A DNA stretch of 36,757 nt, from positions 1-36,757 of the forward strand of contig JABIGM010000001.1 of NCBI GenBank assembly GCA_018650165.1. Reading direction: 5' to 3'. The position numbers were made by a program, and so were the translations under genes. This document shows positions 5,417 through 9,195 of the stretch, in pieces. The notes beneath the pieces were generated by a model, which was given only the letters and a program-made list of their open reading frames with translations, was not told where the DNA came from and did no database searches. This stretch comes from Methanobacteriota archaeon (GTDB lineage: Archaea; Thermoplasmatota; Poseidoniia; Poseidoniales; Poseidoniaceae). Numbering within the stretch: the stretch's first letter is position 1; each line of letters opens with the position of its first letter.

Positions 5417-5602
5417 TTATCCCGACAAAGCCTTCCAAGTTACATTAACTAACTCGAAATAACGTACAAATAGCGGTTTCTTTGTTAAACCGAGTTTAAT
5501 AAATCCTTTCTCCAGTGGAAATGTGTAAGTAAATGTAACAAATTAATCTAAAGTAAGCAGTAATTTTGATATGTTCAGTGAGATTGGAGCGAATTGGTGA
5601 CA

Positions 5603-7876
5603 ATGGTGCGTAATCGAATACGGTCCACATACCAACGCAGAATCCTCGATTGGTTGGCTGATGGCGGTGGAACTGTAACCGAGGTATCTAATGCGCTTGG
5701 CCTGAGGATATCCCATGCTTCAGCAGCATTGAAACAATTGCGTAATTCGGGAGACGTCGTACGAGATGATCACAATATTAGAGGCTCCAGATATAGATTA
5801 ACATCACAGGGGCTATCACGATTCGAATCAGATGGTCTCGCTAGATTAACTGAATTGGTATACTGGCCACCTCCACCCGGGGCGGCAGGAATTGTGCTTG
5901 CCAGAGATGGCTCAATGTTACTACTTGGTTACGCATCTCAACCAGCTGGACCGTTACTTGGCTTACCCGAAAGGCCGATGGATGAAGAAAGTGGAGTAAT
6001 TGAAAACTCCACTGGAAATAAGGGGGACTCTATGTCTTGGCGTTGGGCTGTACAAAGAGGCGATGGGCCAATTTGGTGGGACCTTGAAACCCAACGTAGA
6101 GCAGAGGCTCCAACCGAAACAAGCCCTATGACGCTTACAGCTTGGATGGAGCGTCCGAAAGTGATGGGGATTGTTCGAGCACGAATACTAGAAGATTCGA
6201 TTCCTTGGCCACTAGGGGTCGGAAGTTGGTTCACTTCTTTGCCAGATGGGCATTGGCCAGTGCTACCTCAAGTTTTACGGGATGGAGATGCGGCAATAGG
6301 GAGGGCTGGAAACTCTGGTCCACAAGTTCGCCCAAGAGGGGGAATACACGCTAGATTGGGACGGAGGACCGACCGTTCACAGATTGCTAATACGGCTTCG
6401 AATAATGCATTGACTATTATTGATGGAGATTTATTGTCCAAACCACTAACGCCATTGCCAAAAGAAATCCTTAGGCACTGGTTAGAACTTATTCATCCAA
6501 GACTTGGTAAGAAATCAATAACTGAACGCTATACTAGATTACTTGCTGACATCAAATCTTCAGCATCTAATGCACTGACTCGGAGGGTACTGAATGATTT
6601 TCCTGGTCGGAAATGGACGAATTCGTTAGATGATTTTATCGACACCAGATTCATATCGCGAATTGGTGGTGAATCCGTTCTACGGTTTGCTTTAGAGATT
6701 AGTGAAAAACCAATAGTTTTCGATTGTAGATGGGCACTGAATGAAATATTAATCAAACAATTTACCAGTGATAGTCGTTGCAGAATAATTATTTGTGAGT
6801 CTGCTGAAACCGACTTACCATTTGTCCTTACGTCGCTTGAAGGTAAAGGGAAATTCGATTTGGAAATGCCAGGGCGCTTGCATCTACCAATTAGTGTAAG
6901 TACTGAAATTCCAATTCCCAATGATTGGGTCGCTCCTAAATCACCACTTGAATTAGAACGTGGTGATATGTCAAAAGTAGATGATGCCAATAGTGAATTA
7001 GGGGCCATTTGGCAAGCGACTAGATTGAAACATGGAGATAGTGCATGGGCCGACCGCCATGAAAAAAACTACCCTCTAGCCTCTTGGATTGCTACGCCGG
7101 TAAGCGAACATGCGGCAAGATGGAGACGGATTGGAGGTAGTTTAAGCCCCAAATGGGCAAATCTGGCGGATCTGACAACCTTTGATGAAGAGGAACTTTG
7201 CGATTTGGCATTAGTTGAAGATGAGGCTCTTTCAATATTGATTGATAGAATCAGAGATAATCCACTCAACATCATTTCTTCAGATAAATCTCATCCTGCA
7301 ATTGCTACTGTAATTTTACTCAGCCAGGAATGGTTCGAGGAAACTATCGATGTCAATGAGGCGTGGCTATCTCAGCCATTGAGGCTCGGCGAGGTGTTGC
7401 GTAAGAATTGGAATAACCACAACATCTCGCTTTTGGTAACGGCCTGCCCCTTCCATTCATTACTTCTTGAAGATAAAAAATTGGATAGAGAAGATATCTT
7501 GGCAATAATGGAGGATGTACATTATTCCCTTTGGATTCAAAAGTCAGCATCTTGGTTGACCACCTGTCTCGCATCAACTATGGGTAGAAATGCGTTATCA
7601 ATGCTTAATCTACCTTGGCCAGCAATTCTGTACCAACAAAATATCTCTTCGGAAGATGTAACACTTGTTCACCACATGCCAGATGGAATTGGGAAAACTT
7701 CACTCTTAGATGTGCTAGATGGGATTCTTGCAGCCGAACAAGGGAAGCCACCTGCGCTTGGTCGCACACATCCGCTCGCAGGATGGTTATTCCAAAAGCA
7801 TGTGCCAATGGTACCTATTGAGAATACGGATGACCCAGATATACATCTTGCATTACACCGGCGCTTTCAACAATGA
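5603..7876 (+). CDS. Large protein with N-terminal winged-helix DNA-binding domain (ArsR/MarR-like) and uncharacterised C-terminal ~680 aa
   Basis: RILDWLADGGGTVTEVSNALGLRISHASAALKQLRNSGDV...RYRLTSQG is a typical wHTH. The rest is not recognisable. Confidence 0.75.
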   Translation: MVRNRIRSTYQRRILDWLADGGGTVTEVSNALGLRISHASAALKQLRNSGDVVRDDHNIRGSRYRLTSQGLSRFESDGLARLTELVYWPPPPGAAGIVLARDGSMLLLGYASQPAGPLLGLPERPMDEESGVIENSTGNKGDSMSWRWAVQRGDGPIWWDLETQRRAEAPTETSPMTLTAWMERPKVMGIVRARILEDSIPWPLGVGSWFTSLPDGHWPVLPQVLRDGDAAIGRAGNSGPQVRPRGGIHARLGRRTDRSQIANTASNNALTIIDGDLLSKPLTPLPKEILRHWLELIHPRLGKKSITERYTRLLADIKSSASNALTRRVLNDFPGRKWTNSLDDFIDTRFISRIGGESVLRFALEISEKPIVFDCRWALNEILIKQFTSDSRCRIIICESAETDLPFVLTSLEGKGKFDLEMPGRLHLPISVSTEIPIPNDWVAPKSPLELERGDMSKVDDANSELGAIWQATRLKHGDSAWADRHEKNYPLASWIATPVSEHAARWRRIGGSLSPKWANLADLTTFDEEELCDLALVEDEALSILIDRIRDNPLNIISSDKSHPAIATVILLSQEWFEETIDVNEAWLSQPLRLGEVLRKNWNNHNISLLVTACPFHSLLLEDKKLDREDILAIMEDVHYSLWIQKSASWLTTCLASTMGRNALSMLNLPWPAILYQQNISSEDVTLVHHMPDGIGKTSLLDVLDGILAAEQGKPPALGRTHPLAGWLFQKHVPMVPIENTDDPDIHLALHRRFQQ

Positions 7877-8178
7877 GTAGCGCTCGCAACGACTTGACCG
7901 CACATGCAACATCGCACGGAGGGCGCAAGCCCGATGAACTGCGATACCAATGATGTGGTCACGTGCCATCGACGAAGACCAGGGTGACTCCTCGGAGAAT
8001 GACCTCTGATGCAAACCGATGGACAATGTGGTCGGTAATGGGTCCTCGCTGGACGAGAGAGTGAGAGTGAGACAACCAACCGGCTGCACAGATAAGCCCT
8101 GACCCTGGGTCAAGCCTCCGAGGAGACAGTGACAGGGGCTGTTACGGGTCGGGGCACAGCTTTCTTTGCGATTCATTG
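7871..8178 (+). ncRNA. Unidentified ~300-nt GC-rich structured RNA candidate
   Basis: About 59% GC over 7921-8160 (hand count), visibly above the flanking genes. No credible ORF. Nested helices including a perfect 10-bp 7988-7997/8116-8125, terminal pairing and a GCAA tetraloop. G-U pairs favour the + strand. Confidence 0.55.
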
Positions 8179-8205
8179 AATAGCCATCCAAATCCAGTCG
8201 ATTGC

Positions 8206-9195
8206 ATGGCGAAGTTGGAACGCTGCTTAGTTGGCGGAACCTTCGATAGATTTCATGCCGGTCACCAGGCACTACTCAATACGGCATTAGATATTGCAGA
8301 ATTGGTTGAAGTTTGGATTGCCAATGATGCCATGTCAGACGCGAAATCACCGTTCATTCAACCATTTGAGGACCGCCGAGAAGCAATTCTCGTATGGGCT
8401 GATGAACGGATTACTACTCATGAATTAACAGATGCAGATGGGCCGGCTCCATTTCGTAAAGATTGTGATAGTATCATCTGCACGCCAGAGACTTTAGGAA
8501 ATTGCCAATCAATAAATGAAAAGAGGTTGGGTAATGGATTACTACCACTTGAAATTATTGAAGCACCTTACTGTATGGATGATGGTGGAGGGATTATTTC
8601 GAGCTCTCGGATTCGCGCAGGGTTGATTAATCGTGAAGGCAAACTGTGGTTAAACAATGATGAGAGGGCAAAAACATACCAATTCCAACCACAACTTGAT
8701 GCTGAATTAAAAGAGCCTGCAGGTGAATTATTTCTTGGACCAGAGGATGTCCCCGAAGTAGCGATGTCTGCTGCCATGGAGCATATTGCTCCTGGGTCGT
8801 TAATTGCGGTTGGAGATGTTAGCGTTGCAACTCTTCTTGATATGGACATAGTACCTGATATTGCACTTGTAGATGGGATGACCAAGCGAACCGAATTAGA
8901 AGATAAAGTCGATTTATCTCCTTTTGATGTACTGATTGATTCAATTAATCCAGCCGGACAAATCACTCCATCATTGATAGATTCAATCGACGCCGCTTTG
9001 CATAATGACCAAACAACATGTATTGAGGTCGAAGGAGAAGAAGATCTTGCTCCAATCATCATTCATCTGCTCGCTCCACTTGGAACCAATGTCATTTATG
9101 GACAACCTGGCAAAGGTGTTGTTTTGAGAATCACGGAATTCGATGCGAAAGAACACTGTCGCAGAATATTATCGCGCTTCGAGGTGATAAATTGA
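8206..9195 (+). CDS. coaD: Fused phosphopantetheine adenylyltransferase + GTP-dependent dephospho-CoA kinase (DUF359)
   Basis: N-terminal VGGTFDRFHAGH (HxGH), TPET, IISSSRIR. C-terminal LKEPAG, IAVGDVS, VDGMTKR, NPAGQIT, VEGEEDLA, VIYGQPGKGVV. Confidence 0.92.
   Translation: MAKLERCLVGGTFDRFHAGHQALLNTALDIAELVEVWIANDAMSDAKSPFIQPFEDRREAILVWADERITTHELTDADGPAPFRKDCDSIICTPETLGNCQSINEKRLGNGLLPLEIIEAPYCMDDGGGIISSSRIRAGLINREGKLWLNNDERAKTYQFQPQLDAELKEPAGELFLGPEDVPEVAMSAAMEHIAPGSLIAVGDVSVATLLDMDIVPDIALVDGMTKRTELEDKVDLSPFDVLIDSINPAGQITPSLIDSIDAALHNDQTTCIEVEGEEDLAPIIIHLLAPLGTNVIYGQPGKGVVLRITEFDAKEHCRRILSRFEVIN

What the first reader, a model, noticed from the sequence alone, without database searches (positions are those of the whole stretch)
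7871..8178. Unassigned ~300-nt GC-rich structured RNA upstream of the CoA-synthesis fusion gene
Helices read on the + strand: CAAUGA 7871-76/UCAUUG 8173-78; UCGCAA 7884-89/UUGCGA 8166-71; CUUGACC 7893-99/GGUCGGG 8147-53; AUCGCA 7911-16/UGCGAU 7940-45; GGGC-GCAA-GCCC 7921-32 (GNRA loop); CUCCUCGGAG 7988-97/CUCCGAGGAG 8116-25; UGACC 8000-04/GGUCA 8108-12; UCUG(A)UGCA 8005-13/UGCACAGA 8085-92; ACCGAU 8015-20/GUCGGU 8031-36. The size fits SRP or RNase P RNA, but I find neither the SRP helix-8 motif (CAGG...AGCA) nor RNase P CR-I/CR-V on either strand. Options: a very divergent housekeeping RNA, a new ncRNA class, or a cis-regulatory leader (for example CoA-responsive) ending 27 nt before the coaD start. 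All three are inference.
Basis: partly seen in the sequence, partly recalled or inferred. Interest (0 to 1): 0.75.

Follow-up and report, generated by a model that had tools for sequence, protein, structure and literature searches.

The report
Four-hairpin H/ACA pseudouridylation guide RNA
The unassigned ~270-nt structured RNA is a guide RNA of a known kind (archaeal box H/ACA) that directs pseudouridine formation at four functional sites of the large ribosomal RNA; it is unusual only in having four hairpins, two of them without the usual ACA box.

Summary
It is four consecutive hairpins (window 7895-8158). Each has a lower stem, an internal-loop pocket, a 10-layer upper 'GA stem' and a K-turn or K-loop (GA...NNUGA). 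HP3 and HP4 carry an invariant ACA 15 nt below the GA stem.

Stems covary in the genus and across the order; pocket sequences hardly change. Each conserved pocket core matches 16S+23S rRNA exactly once, all in 23S: E. coli-equivalent U1915 (helix 69), U2554/2555 (A loop), 2496 and 2606.

Rfam gives only 18 bits to HgcG/Pab40 here, but relatives reach 33-72.5 bits (threshold 77), so HP2-HP4 are a diverged member of that three-hairpin family. HP1 is an extra 5' module. HP1 and HP2 lack a conserved ACA box.

Cbf5 (with PUA domain), Nop10 and L7Ae genes are present. SRP and RNase P RNAs lie elsewhere.

The RNA always sits between the same two genes in Poseidoniales (Marine Group II), but promoter-like boxes and a T-run argue that it is its own transcription unit, not a leader of the CoA gene.

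The scan's first readers had flagged the same island, unassigned, in four other genomes.

Verdict: a new variant of a known kind, of moderate interest.

The parts
7864..7871 (+). Promoter-like TATA-type box (TTTCAACA) about 30 nt before hairpin 1, inside the end of the upstream gene; preceded by a CG(A)-type element
   Evidence: A motif CGA-N3-5-TTCAW/TTGAW recurs 20-30 nt upstream of hairpin 1 in nearly all 29 loci of three families, although the upstream coding sequence differs. The promoter role is inferred from standard archaeal promoter geometry.
7895..7961 (+). Hairpin 1 (HP1), H/ACA-like module without ACA. Lower stem 7895-7902/7954-7961. 5' pocket 7903-7910 (core GCAAC 7906-7910). GA stem 7911-7920/7936-7945. 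Distal stem-loop 7921-7932. K-turn bulge 7933-7935. 3' pocket 7946-7953 (core ACCA). Followed by ACG 7961/62-63, not ANA.
   Evidence: Lower, upper and distal stems covary. Pocket cores GCAAC/ACCA are conserved order-wide. The GA stem has 10 layers and 15 nt run to the box position. The only rRNA match of the core is 23S 2577-2586, target Ec-2606.
7966..8025 (+). Hairpin 2 (HP2). Lower stem 7966-7971/8017-8022. 5' pocket 7972-7977 (core CGAAG). GA stem 7978-7987/8001-8010. Distal stem-loop 7988-7997. K-turn bulge 7998-8000. 3' pocket 8011-8016 (core GCAA). ACA 8023-8025 in this genome (ACU or other in most relatives).
   Evidence: 8 nt + GA on both strands is kept in 23 of the 27 loci the pattern matched, with covarying sequence. 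All stems covary order-wide. The core matches 23S once, UUGC[UA]CUUCG, target Ec-2496 (12/5000 shuffles). cmscan aligns it to motif 1 of HgcG.
8028..8090 (+). Hairpin 3 (HP3), canonical H/ACA module. Lower stem 8028-8036/8079-8087. 5' pocket 8037-8043. GA stem 8044-8053/8063-8072. K-loop 8054-8062. 3' pocket 8073-8078. ACA 8088-8090.
   Evidence: 9/9 lower-stem and 6/6 upper-stem pairs have compensatory changes order-wide. Fold is 10/6/9 with 15 nt to ACA. 12-13 bp pair with the 23S A loop, GGUUG(U)[U(U)C]GCCCAUU, Ec-2554/2555 (0/200 shuffles).
8096..8158 (+). Hairpin 4 (HP4), canonical H/ACA module. Lower stem 8096-8105/8146-8155. 5' pocket 8106-8112. GA stem 8113-8121/8131-8140 (A8134 bulged). 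K-loop 8122-8130. 3' pocket 8141-8145. ACA 8156-8158.
   Evidence: 8/10 lower-stem and 5/5 upper-stem pairs are compensatory order-wide. 15 nt run to ACA. 5+6 bp pair with helix 69, GUAAC[UA]UGACCC, Ec-1915 (0/5000 shuffles). This is the same target as Pab40 motif 3 (PMC2377435).
8161..8167 (+). T-rich tract (TTTCTTT) directly after the last ACA; likely transcription terminator of the guide RNA
   Evidence: T-runs follow the final ACA in most of the 29 loci. The terminator role is inferred from the known oligo-T termination signal of archaeal RNA polymerase.
8176..8183 (+). Promoter-like box TTGAATAG, 30 nt before the ATG (8206) of the PPAT-DUF359 gene; not part of the RNA
   Evidence: The same TTGAA/TCAAA-type motif lies 25-30 nt before the start codon in the other loci. 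This suggests a leaderless mRNA with its own promoter (inference).

Best explanation
Window 7895-8158 (+) encodes one ~270-nt box H/ACA guide sRNA made of four tandem guide modules.

Proposed mechanism:
1. Each module binds L7Ae at its K-turn or K-loop.
2. Each module binds Cbf5-Nop10(-Gar1) on the GA stem, the lower stem and, for HP3 and HP4, the ACA box.
3. The two strands of each internal loop pair with 23S rRNA on either side of a U, which Cbf5 isomerises to pseudouridine.

Predicted targets (E. coli numbering):
- HP4: U1915 in the helix 69 loop.
- HP3: U2554 or U2555 in the A loop. A weak second candidate is U2586.
- HP2: position 2496 in the peptidyl-transferase ring.
- HP1: position 2606 in helix 93.

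HP2, HP3 and HP4 are the diverged counterparts of motifs 1, 2 and 3 of the Pab40/Pf7/Afu4 (Rfam HgcG) RNA. HP1 is an added 5' module. The RNA is transcribed from its own promoter and ends at the T-run after the last ACA.

Shown: the anatomy, covariation, conservation, rRNA complementarity, homology chain and presence of the protein genes. Inferred: expression, RNP assembly, the modifications themselves and the transcript ends.
For: Anatomy: all four hairpins have GA...NNUGA K-turn or K-loop motifs and a GA stem of 10 layers (HP4: 9 plus one bulged A). [quoted passage not shown] This matches the published productive fold 10/5-6/9 and the 14-15 nt ruler (PMC4652768, PMC2377435).

Covariation: in the genus, 99.1% of cells are paired with 11 compensatory pairs and 0/500 shuffles. 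Order-wide, 28/30 and 29/32 pairs are compensatory, with 94.6% and 93.1% of cells paired against at most 51% when slid.

Conservation: the RNA is more conserved than the flanking genes. It is found as one copy per genome in 114/151 genomes of the order, and the four-hairpin layout is present in 29/29 sampled loci.

Targets: each conserved pocket core matches 16S+23S exactly once. Shuffles with any match were 93, 12, 15 and 0 of 5000. Duplexes are shown and E. coli numbering comes. The target sequences are invariant across the order. Three of the four sites are present in the window's own 23S fragment C9:39121-39523.

Known sites: Pab40 motif 3 guides the helix 69 pseudouridine, and Pab40 motif 1 guides Pab 2588, which is Ec-2496 by an offset of 92. 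Afu4 motif 2 was proposed to target Pab 2647, which is Ec-2555. Pab 2698, which is Ec-2606, is described as frequently pseudouridylated in eukaryotes (PMC2377435).

Homology: scores against HgcG are 18.1 bits here, 34.5 and 32.6 bits in two other families of the order, and 72.5 bits (E 4e-18) in a genome of another family of the phylum.

Proteins: Cbf5 with DKCLD, TruB_N and PUA domains, Nop10, and two L7Ae-family genes are present.
Against: - The window copy scores far below the Rfam HgcG threshold (18 against 77 bits).
- HP1 and HP2 have no conserved ANA box (AYG or GCG after HP1; ACA in 8 species and ACU in 21 after HP2 within the genus, other sequences elsewhere).
- HP2 has only 12 nt between the GA stem and the box. 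Published in vitro data found 13 nt non-functional in Pyrococcus.
- HP1 pairs with its candidate target over only 3+5 bp (plus 2 more after a mismatch). Its core match arises in about 2% of shuffles.
- I moved the HP2 pocket boundary after seeing the candidate target, although the order-wide 8+GA covariation supports the move independently.
- Gar1 was not found by its Pfam model. The genome is 80% complete, and the control search also missed Gar1 in Sulfolobus.
- Some genera of family f3 carry a changed HP3 pocket without any change in the A loop.
- There are no expression or modification data.
- The equivalences to yeast and Pyrococcus numbering rest on offset arithmetic, not on an alignment.
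Confidence: 0.92

Rival explanations
1. Only HP3 and HP4 are active guides. HP1 and HP2 are decayed or non-catalytic modules, for example L7Ae-binding or chaperone-like elements that hold the rRNA without modifying it, or that only stabilise the RNP.
For: HP1 and HP2 lack a conserved ANA box. HP2 has 12 nt to the box instead of 14-16. HP1 pairs over only 8 contiguous bp in two arms. In H. volcanii the ANA of the internal box of a double-hairpin guide was needed for activity of the 5' hairpin (PMC7075261).
Against: Their pocket cores (GCAAC/ACCA, CGAAG/GCAA) and the exact 10-layer GA stems are kept across three families while the stems covary. That is hard to explain without selection on pairing and geometry. 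Both cores hit the rRNA once, at positions equivalent to known conserved pseudouridines (PMC2377435). ACA is dispensable for typical UN targets in single-hairpin guides (PMC7075261), and ACA-less H/ACA-like guides are described (PMC4652768).
Confidence: 0.25
2. The RNA is, or is also, a cis-acting leader or co-transcribed element of the downstream PPAT-DUF359 (CoA synthesis) gene.
For: The RNA lies directly upstream of, and co-oriented with, this gene in 29/29 loci of three families. The gap is 15-97 nt. Two earlier first-reader notes on other genomes report the same neighbourhood.
Against: A T-run follows the last ACA, and a promoter-like box sits about 30 nt before the ATG, which fits a leaderless mRNA. 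The invariant parts of the RNA are explained by rRNA complementarity and protein-binding motifs. No ligand-pocket-like conserved junction is present. The upstream gene is as constant a neighbour as the downstream one.
Confidence: 0.05
3. It is a very divergent SRP RNA, RNase P RNA or a new class of structured RNA.
For: The size (~300 nt), the G+C content and the absence of an Rfam hit at gathering threshold.
Against: SRP RNA and RNase P RNA are found elsewhere in the same genome above threshold. The fold is four independent hairpins, not a multi-junction core. There is a homology chain to HgcG.
Confidence: 0.01

Closest known systems
HgcG / Pab40 / Pf7 / Afu4 three-hairpin box H/ACA sRNA (Rfam RF00064; Thermococcales, Archaeoglobus)
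   Same: Both are tandem H/ACA modules in one RNA with K-turn or K-loop motifs. The module order and targets correspond: motif 1 and HP2 target Pab 2588 / Ec-2496, motif 3 and HP4 target the helix 69 loop, and motif 2 of Afu4 was proposed for the A-loop U that HP3 matches (PMC2377435). cmscan aligns HP2-HP4 to model positions 52-276. A relative from another family of the phylum scores 72.5 bits.
   Different: The window copy scores only 18 bits (threshold 77). It has a fourth, 5' module (HP1) with no counterpart in the matched part of the model. The internal boxes after HP1 and HP2 are not ANA in most species. The HP2 lower stem is 6 bp, giving 12 nt to the box.
Haloferax volcanii sR-h45 (double-hairpin H/ACA sRNA)
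   Same: One multi-hairpin RNA carries the guides for helix 69 (Psi1940/1942, equivalent to Ec-1915/1917) and for a domain V site (PMC7075261). HP3's second candidate, GGGUU[UA]GACC, pairs through two A's with the UU before the target, as described for SL1 and Psi2605.
   Different: It has two hairpins separated by a 56-nt linker, whereas here four hairpins are separated by 2-5 nt. SL2 leaves UNUN unpaired to make two pseudouridines, whereas HP4 pairs the second U (U-A) in its best duplex.
Pyrobaculum H/ACA-like sRNAs (Bernick 2012, as summarised in PMC4652768)
   Same: They are guide hairpins with a K-turn, a GA stem and a pocket, but without a canonical ACA box, as in HP1 and HP2.
   Different: Those RNAs are single hairpins with a truncated lower stem and free single-stranded guide arms, reported as specific to one crenarchaeal genus. 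HP1 and HP2 keep a closed lower stem (8 and 6 bp) and are embedded in a multi-hairpin RNA of a euryarchaeal-type lineage.
Eukaryotic hairpin-hinge-hairpin-tail H/ACA snoRNAs (e.g. yeast snR10, snR42, snR46, snR191)
   Same: The chemistry, pocket logic and conserved target sites in helix 69 and the peptidyl-transferase centre are the same (site equivalence by offset arithmetic and from memory).
   Different: They have two hairpins with an H box (ANANNA) and ACA and no K-turn. The L7Ae homologue Nhp2 binds without a K-turn.

Membership tests
Archaeal box H/ACA guide sRNA (class) | Hairpin with lower stem, internal-loop pocket and upper stem | tested here: met
   All four hairpins. In the genus 99.1% of cells are paired with 11 compensatory pairs. 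Order-wide 28/30 and 29/32 pairs are compensatory.
Archaeal box H/ACA guide sRNA (class) | K-turn or K-loop (tandem sheared G.A pairs, 3-nt bulge ending in U) in the apical part, with a GA stem of about 10 layers from pocket to second G.A | tested here: met
   The GA...NNUGA letters are invariant in the genus. GA stems are 10, 10, 10 and 9 plus a bulge. HP2 keeps 8+GA on both strands in 23 of the 27 loci the pattern matched. The criterion comes from PMC4652768. L7Ae binding itself was not tested.
Archaeal box H/ACA guide sRNA (class) | ANA (usually ACA) box 14-16 nt 3' of the pocket-closing pair | tested here: inconclusive
   HP3 and HP4 meet it: ACA at 15 nt, invariant in the genus and near-invariant order-wide. 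HP1 does not: ACG, AUG or GCG at 15 nt. HP2 has ACA at 12 nt in this genome and ACU or other sequences in most relatives.
Archaeal box H/ACA guide sRNA (class) | Both pocket strands pair (at least 3 bp each) with a stable RNA around an unpaired UN | tested here: met
   HP4 5+6 bp, HP3 6+7 bp, HP2 4+5 bp, HP1 3+5 bp, all to 23S rRNA. Each conserved core matches the rRNA once, with shuffle counts of 0-93 per 5000.
Archaeal box H/ACA guide sRNA (class) | Partner proteins Cbf5, Nop10, L7Ae and Gar1 encoded in the genome | tested here: inconclusive
   Cbf5 (DKCLD, TruB_N, TruB_C_2, PUA), Nop10 and two L7Ae-family genes were found. The Gar1 Pfam model found nothing in this 80% complete genome, and the control search also missed Sulfolobus.
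Archaeal box H/ACA guide sRNA (class) | Pseudouridine actually formed at the predicted sites; RNA expressed | not testable with these tools
Rfam RF00064 HgcG (Pab40) | Covariance-model score at or above the gathering threshold (77 bits) | tested here: not met
   The window copy scores 18.1 bits, E 0.006. The best relative scores 72.5 bits, E 3.8e-18. Homology is inferred transitively. By Rfam's own criterion this RNA is not a member.
Rfam RF00064 HgcG (Pab40) | Three H/ACA motifs, with motif 1 targeting Pab 2588 and motif 3 targeting the helix 69 loop | tested here: met
   HP2 to HP4 align to the three motifs. HP4 targets Ec-1915 in helix 69. HP2 targets Ec-2496, which equals Pab 2588 under an offset of 92 (arithmetic from PMC2377435, not an alignment). 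The window RNA has one further module, HP1.
Archaeal SRP RNA / RNase P RNA | Match to the family model; being the only copy in the genome | tested here: not met
   There is no match in the window. Both RNAs are found elsewhere in the genome above threshold.
Riboswitch / cis-regulatory leader | Continuous with the regulated mRNA; conserved expression platform (terminator/antiterminator or start-site masking) | tested here: not met
   A T-run and a promoter-like box lie between the RNA and the ATG. The helices bridging the RNA ends towards the start region are not conserved. Transcript continuity itself could not be tested.

The most novel reading that the evidence does not exclude
In Poseidoniales, one four-module RNA may carry the whole RNA-guided pseudouridylation programme of the ribosome's catalytic centre and helix 69. 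Two of the modules would work without an ACA box, and HP2 would work with a 12-nt spacing instead of the usual 14-16 nt ruler. The RNA would be held next to the CoA-synthesis gene for a functional reason such as shared regulation. If so, this would be the first four-hairpin H/ACA guide and would show ACA-independent guide modules outside Pyrobaculum.
Probability: 0.2. Interest if true: 0.55.

Novelty: new variant of a known kind. Interest (0 to 1): 0.42.

Why it matters
It gives an identity and testable target sites to a conserved RNA that Rfam-based annotation leaves unassigned in an abundant group of uncultured marine archaea. The scan's first readers had flagged the same RNA as unknown in several other genomes.

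It predicts that these archaea place pseudouridines at the sites that are most conserved between archaea and eukaryotes: helix 69, the A loop and the peptidyl-transferase ring.

It extends the reported range of archaeal H/ACA architecture in two ways. The 2021 review (PMC7991803) says one hairpin, rarely two or three, whereas this RNA has four. It also contains natural ACA-less modules inside a multi-hairpin guide, which makes it a useful comparative case for how Cbf5 is positioned when the ACA anchor is missing.

The alignments (A4, A5) could seed an Rfam family or an extension of RF00064.

Tried and rejected
- Rfam at gathering threshold found nothing in the whole window.
- Contiguous-pairing and mismatch-tolerant target scans of 16S, 23S and 32 tRNAs found no convincing 16S or tRNA target. 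With my first pocket boundaries they also found no HP2 target.
- A whole-genome target scan produced many hits at similar scores. The best HP1 and HP2 hits (C42:56451, C4:16795) lie antisense to open reading frames and I rejected them as chance.
- HP1's alternative site at 23S 2591 was rejected because its 5' arm is disrupted in family f3 rRNA while the guide is unchanged.
- A guide-target covariation test using the variant HP3 pocket of some f3 genera failed: the rRNA targets do not change.
- A home-made H/ACA descriptor scan of the genome was not specific (20 hits against 20 in a reversed-genome control). I therefore cannot say whether other guides exist. An apparent tandem pair on C63 lies in coding sequence.
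- Two papers I wanted were not held (PMC149196, PMC3285929).
- PMC1766470 did not give the E. coli equivalents I was looking for.
- C/D-box identity was considered for HP1 because of its GAUGA/CGGA K-turn. I rejected it because there are no C'/D' boxes and no guide arrangement.
Full report
**The observation.** The stretch lies between the stop codon of a 760-aa gene (TGA 7874-7876) and the ATG at 8206 of the next gene.
- It is richer in G+C than its surroundings: 0.53 and 0.50 in the two 300-nt windows, against about 0.44.
- The + strand folds better than its shuffles (z -2.5, 1 of 100), while the - strand does not (z -0.5).
- BLAST finds it in 35 of 36 other genomes of the genus at 82-95% identity.
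- Per-column identity is 0.81-0.97 over 7900-8170, against 0.45-0.75 in the protein-coding flanks.

No Rfam family reaches its gathering score anywhere in the window.

I scored both folds on an alignment of 29 genus homologues (A1).
- Helices D and E (7911-16/7940-45 and 7921-32) hold: 100% paired, with 3 and 2 compensatory pairs.
- Helix B is paired in 47.6% of cells.
- Helices A, C and F break in many species without convincing compensation.
- Helices G, H and I almost never vary within the genus and clash with stems that covary at greater distance.

The alignment instead shows four consecutive hairpins. That model is paired in 99.1% of cells, has 11 pairs with compensatory changes, is reached by 0 of 500 shuffles, and drops to 33-45% when the 3' partners are slid. 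The minimum-free-energy fold of the single sequence also draws these four hairpins.

**What the hairpins are.** A permissive Rfam search of the region gave a weak + strand hit to HgcG/Pab40, an archaeal three-hairpin box H/ACA guide (18.1 bits, E 0.006, threshold 77). The anatomy fits that class in detail.
- Each hairpin has a lower stem, an internal loop, an upper stem and a GA...NNUGA motif. These letters are invariant in the genus and can form the tandem sheared G.A pairs and 3-nt bulge of a K-turn (HP1, HP2, with covarying distal stems) or a K-loop (HP3, HP4).
- The pan-archaeal survey PMC4652768 defines the 'GA stem' as running from the pair that closes the pocket to the second G.A pair. 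It reports 10 layers in all crystal structures and productive folds of 10/5-6/9, with 14-15 nt to the ANA box. PMC2377435 gives the same 14-15 nt ruler.
- Here the GA stems are 10, 10, 10 and 9 plus one bulged A.
- The 3' guide plus lower-stem strand is 15, 12, 15 and 15 nt, followed by ACG, ACA, ACA and ACA.

HP3 (8028-8090) and HP4 (8096-8158) are therefore textbook modules.

HP1 (7895-7961) and HP2 (7966-8025) have the same geometry above the pocket but lack a conserved box.
- After HP1 the genus has ACG, AUG or GCG.
- After HP2, 8 species have ACA and 21 have ACU. Other genera have unrelated letters.

**Distribution and covariation at depth.**
- A covariance model of HP3+HP4 (R1) finds one full-length copy in 114 of 151 genomes of the order: 73/74 in the same family, 2/2 in f2 and 38/74 in f3 under stricter filters.
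- A model of HP1+HP2 (R2) finds its match directly 5' of HP3+HP4 in all 29 loci sampled from the three families.
- On these order-wide alignments, 28 of 30 and 29 of 32 pairs show compensatory changes. 94.6% and 93.1% of cells are paired, against at most 51% when slid, and 0/500 shuffles reach the observed values.
- These alignments were fitted to the model, which favours its structure. The raw sequences nonetheless make the point plainly. For example, HP2's eight GA-stem positions read ACCAGGGU/CCUCUGAU, GCCGUGGU/ACCUCGGU, ACUGGAAU/CUUCCGGU and ACCGACGU/UCGUCGGA, always 8 nt plus GA on both strands, in 23 of the 27 loci the pattern matched.
- The pocket cores, by contrast, stay fixed: GCAAC...ACCA (HP1), CGAAG...GCAA (HP2), AUGGGU...CAACC (HP3, with a variant in some f3 genera) and GGGUCA...GUUA (HP4).
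- All 16 public records holding an exact 24-mer of HP4 are marine MAGs. Nine are titled Candidatus Poseidoniales or Poseidoniaceae (Marine Group II); the rest are labelled only Methanobacteriota or Euryarchaeota archaeon.

**Targets.** An H/ACA pocket pairs with its substrate as 5'-[complement of 3' guide]-U-N-[complement of 5' guide]-3'. I scanned the genome's own 16S (C44:7407-8874) and a complete 23S from the closest relative (G032).
- The window's genome holds only 23S fragments, C32:1-926 and C9:39121-39523.
- HP3 pairs 6+7 bp with GGUUGU[UC]GCCCAUU (0 of 200 shuffles), and HP4 pairs 5+6 bp with GUAAC[UA]UGACCC.
- Alignment to E. coli rrlH places these at U2555 in the A loop and U1915 in the helix 69 loop.
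- With the canonical 10/6/9 frame, HP3 would leave UUC unpaired and modify U2554 instead. A single-stranded UNN is documented as functional (PMC2377435). I cannot choose between 2554 and 2555.

For HP1 and HP2 the order-wide alignment defined the true pocket cores.
- HP2 pairs 4+5 bp, with no offset from its GA stem, to UUGC[UA]CUUCG (G032 2470 = Ec-2496).
- HP1 pairs 3+5 bp to GGU[UU]GUUGC (2580 = Ec-2606).

Each of the four conserved cores, written as a strict Watson-Crick pattern, occurs exactly once in 16S+23S. Shuffled rRNAs contain any match in 93, 12, 15 and 0 of 5000 trials. The four target sequences are identical in every 23S of the order that I could fetch, and three of them are present in the window's own 23S fragment. 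No convincing 16S or tRNA target appeared.

**Agreement with known sites.**
- PMC2377435 shows that Pab40 motif 3 makes the conserved helix 69 pseudouridine (Pab 2016) and that motif 1 makes Pab Psi2588.
- It lists 2016, 2549, 2588 and 2603 as conserved with eukaryotes.
- It says position 2698 corresponds to a frequently pseudouridylated eukaryotic site.
- It says Afu4 motif 2 had been proposed for the equivalent of Pab 2647.
- With a Pab-to-E. coli offset of 92 in domain V, these are Ec-2496 (the HP2 target), Ec-2606 (the HP1 target) and Ec-2555 (the HP3 target).
- I derived that offset from the spacing 39 and 15 between Pab 2549, 2588 and 2603. From memory this equals the spacing of yeast Psi2826, 2865 and 2880. 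It is arithmetic, not an alignment, and should be checked.
- H. volcanii sR-h45 likewise combines a helix 69 guide and a domain V guide in one RNA (PMC7075261). Its SL1 target lies in a UUU run where two U's pair with two A's of the 3' guide. HP3 can form the same arrangement with GGGUU[UA]GACC (Ec-2586, 4+4 bp, 14 nt to ACA). This second target is only a weak candidate.

**Homology to HgcG.** The same Rfam model scores 34.5 and 32.6 bits on members of the two other families of the order. It scores 72.5 bits (E 3.8e-18, model positions 58-276) on the RNA of a genome from another family of the phylum (G294).
- That RNA keeps the HP2, HP3 and HP4 pocket cores, each followed by ACA.
- HP2-HP4 are therefore a diverged member of the Pab40/Pf7/Afu4 lineage.
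- HP1 has no counterpart in the matched part of the model. The G294 contig ends 14 nt upstream, so I cannot say where HP1 arose.
- By Rfam's own threshold the window RNA is not a member, and I record that as a failed membership test alongside the transitive evidence.

**Partners.** The genome encodes Cbf5 with DKCLD, TruB_N, TruB_C_2 and PUA domains, Nop10 and two L7Ae-family proteins. The Gar1 Pfam model found nothing. The genome is 80% complete and the control search also missed Gar1 in Sulfolobus, so this is uninformative.

**Surroundings and the leader hypothesis.**
- The downstream gene is a cytidylyltransferase-like (PPAT) plus DUF359 fusion, and the upstream 760-aa protein has no Pfam match.
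- The order upstream gene, RNA, PPAT-DUF359 gene, all on one strand, holds across the three families. The downstream gene follows in all 29 loci, 15-97 nt after the RNA model, and the upstream protein is detected in 26.
- Three things argue against a leader. A T-rich tract follows the last ACA in most loci (here TTTCTTT, 8161-8167). A motif CGA-N3-5-TTCAW/TTGAW lies 20-30 nt before HP1. The same motif also lies about 30 nt before the start codon (here TTGAATAG 8176-8183, ATG 8206).
- That is the spacing of an archaeal TATA box in front of a leaderless mRNA. The promoter and terminator roles are inferences from standard archaeal promoter geometry.

**Housekeeping RNAs.** SRP RNA (C1:130-432, 106 bits) and RNase P RNA (C49:12849-13145, 224 bits) are present elsewhere in the genome.

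**What remains uncertain.**
- Whether HP1 and HP2 are active. They lack ANA, HP2 has 12 nt where 13 was non-functional in Pyrococcus assays (PMC2377435), and the internal ANA was needed in the H. volcanii double hairpin (PMC7075261). Against that, their pockets and exact GA-stem length are conserved across the order. ACA is dispensable for typical targets in single-hairpin guides (PMC7075261), and ACA-less H/ACA-like guides exist (PMC4652768).
- Whether the RNA is processed into single hairpins.
- Why some f3 genera carry UAGGUC/ACUACCC in HP3 while the rRNA sites are unchanged.
- Whether other H/ACA guides exist in the genome. My descriptor scan had no specificity.

**Novelty.** The kind is known and the lineage is known.
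- The review PMC7991803 states that archaeal H/ACA sRNAs have one hairpin and rarely two or three.
- None of the papers listed for my search on this archaeal order and pseudouridine guides mentioned the order.
- Four modules, two without a conserved box, in an order-wide conserved RNA make this a new variant of a known kind, not a new class.
- The scan's first readers had flagged the same island as an unassigned structured RNA in four other genomes. This report gives all of them an identity.

Noticed in passing
window 5594-7876, 7895-8158, 8206-9195 and 29 related loci (L046-L092): The gene order [760-aa protein without Pfam match] > four-hairpin RNA > [PPAT + DUF359 fusion] is co-oriented across three families, while the proteins fall to 37-50% identity. 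The downstream gene follows in all 29 loci and the upstream protein is detected in 26. No functional reason for this linkage is evident.
   Followed up: partly
window 7864-7871 and 8176-8183; 60 nt upstream of HP1 and 100 nt downstream of HP4 in 29 loci: A recurring CGA-N3-5-TTCAW/TTGAW motif lies 20-30 nt before the RNA and about 30 nt before the start codon of the next gene. It is a candidate BRE/TATA consensus for Poseidoniales and implies leaderless mRNAs.
   Followed up: partly
L077, L078, L080, L081, L083 (family f3, genera g10, g21, g5, g8), HP3 pocket: These genera carry a different HP3 pocket (UAGGUC / ACUACCC instead of AUGGGUC / ACAACCA), although the A-loop and Ec-2586 sites of their 23S are unchanged. 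Either mismatches are tolerated or the module has been retargeted. One genome (G155) offers a 7-bp match to GGGUAGU near the P loop.
   Followed up: partly
G014, G020, G021, G023, G033: In 5 of 36 genomes of the genus a contig ends inside this ~300-nt element. The same pattern is seen at rRNA genes in metagenome assemblies and fits a sequence nearly identical among co-occurring populations.
   Followed up: no
G000 contigs C32:1-926, C9:39121-39523, C44:7407-8874: The 23S rRNA of the window's genome is present only as two contig-end fragments, which the Rfam family search of the genome did not report. The contig with the complete 16S carries no 23S sequence, so the two genes may be unlinked.
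   Followed up: partly
L120:700-911 (-) = G294:C36, another family of the same phylum: This is an HgcG-like three-module H/ACA RNA scoring 72.5 bits, just under the Rfam threshold of 77. It has the same three pocket cores as HP2-HP4 and ACA after each module. It is a useful bridge sequence for extending RF00064.
   Followed up: partly
L121:701-838 (-) and L122:393-530 (+) (family f8 of the phylum): These are weak matches (about 27 bits) to the HP3+HP4 model. They have H/ACA-like shape and a terminal ACA but different pocket sequences, so they are probably other H/ACA guides with other targets.
   Followed up: no
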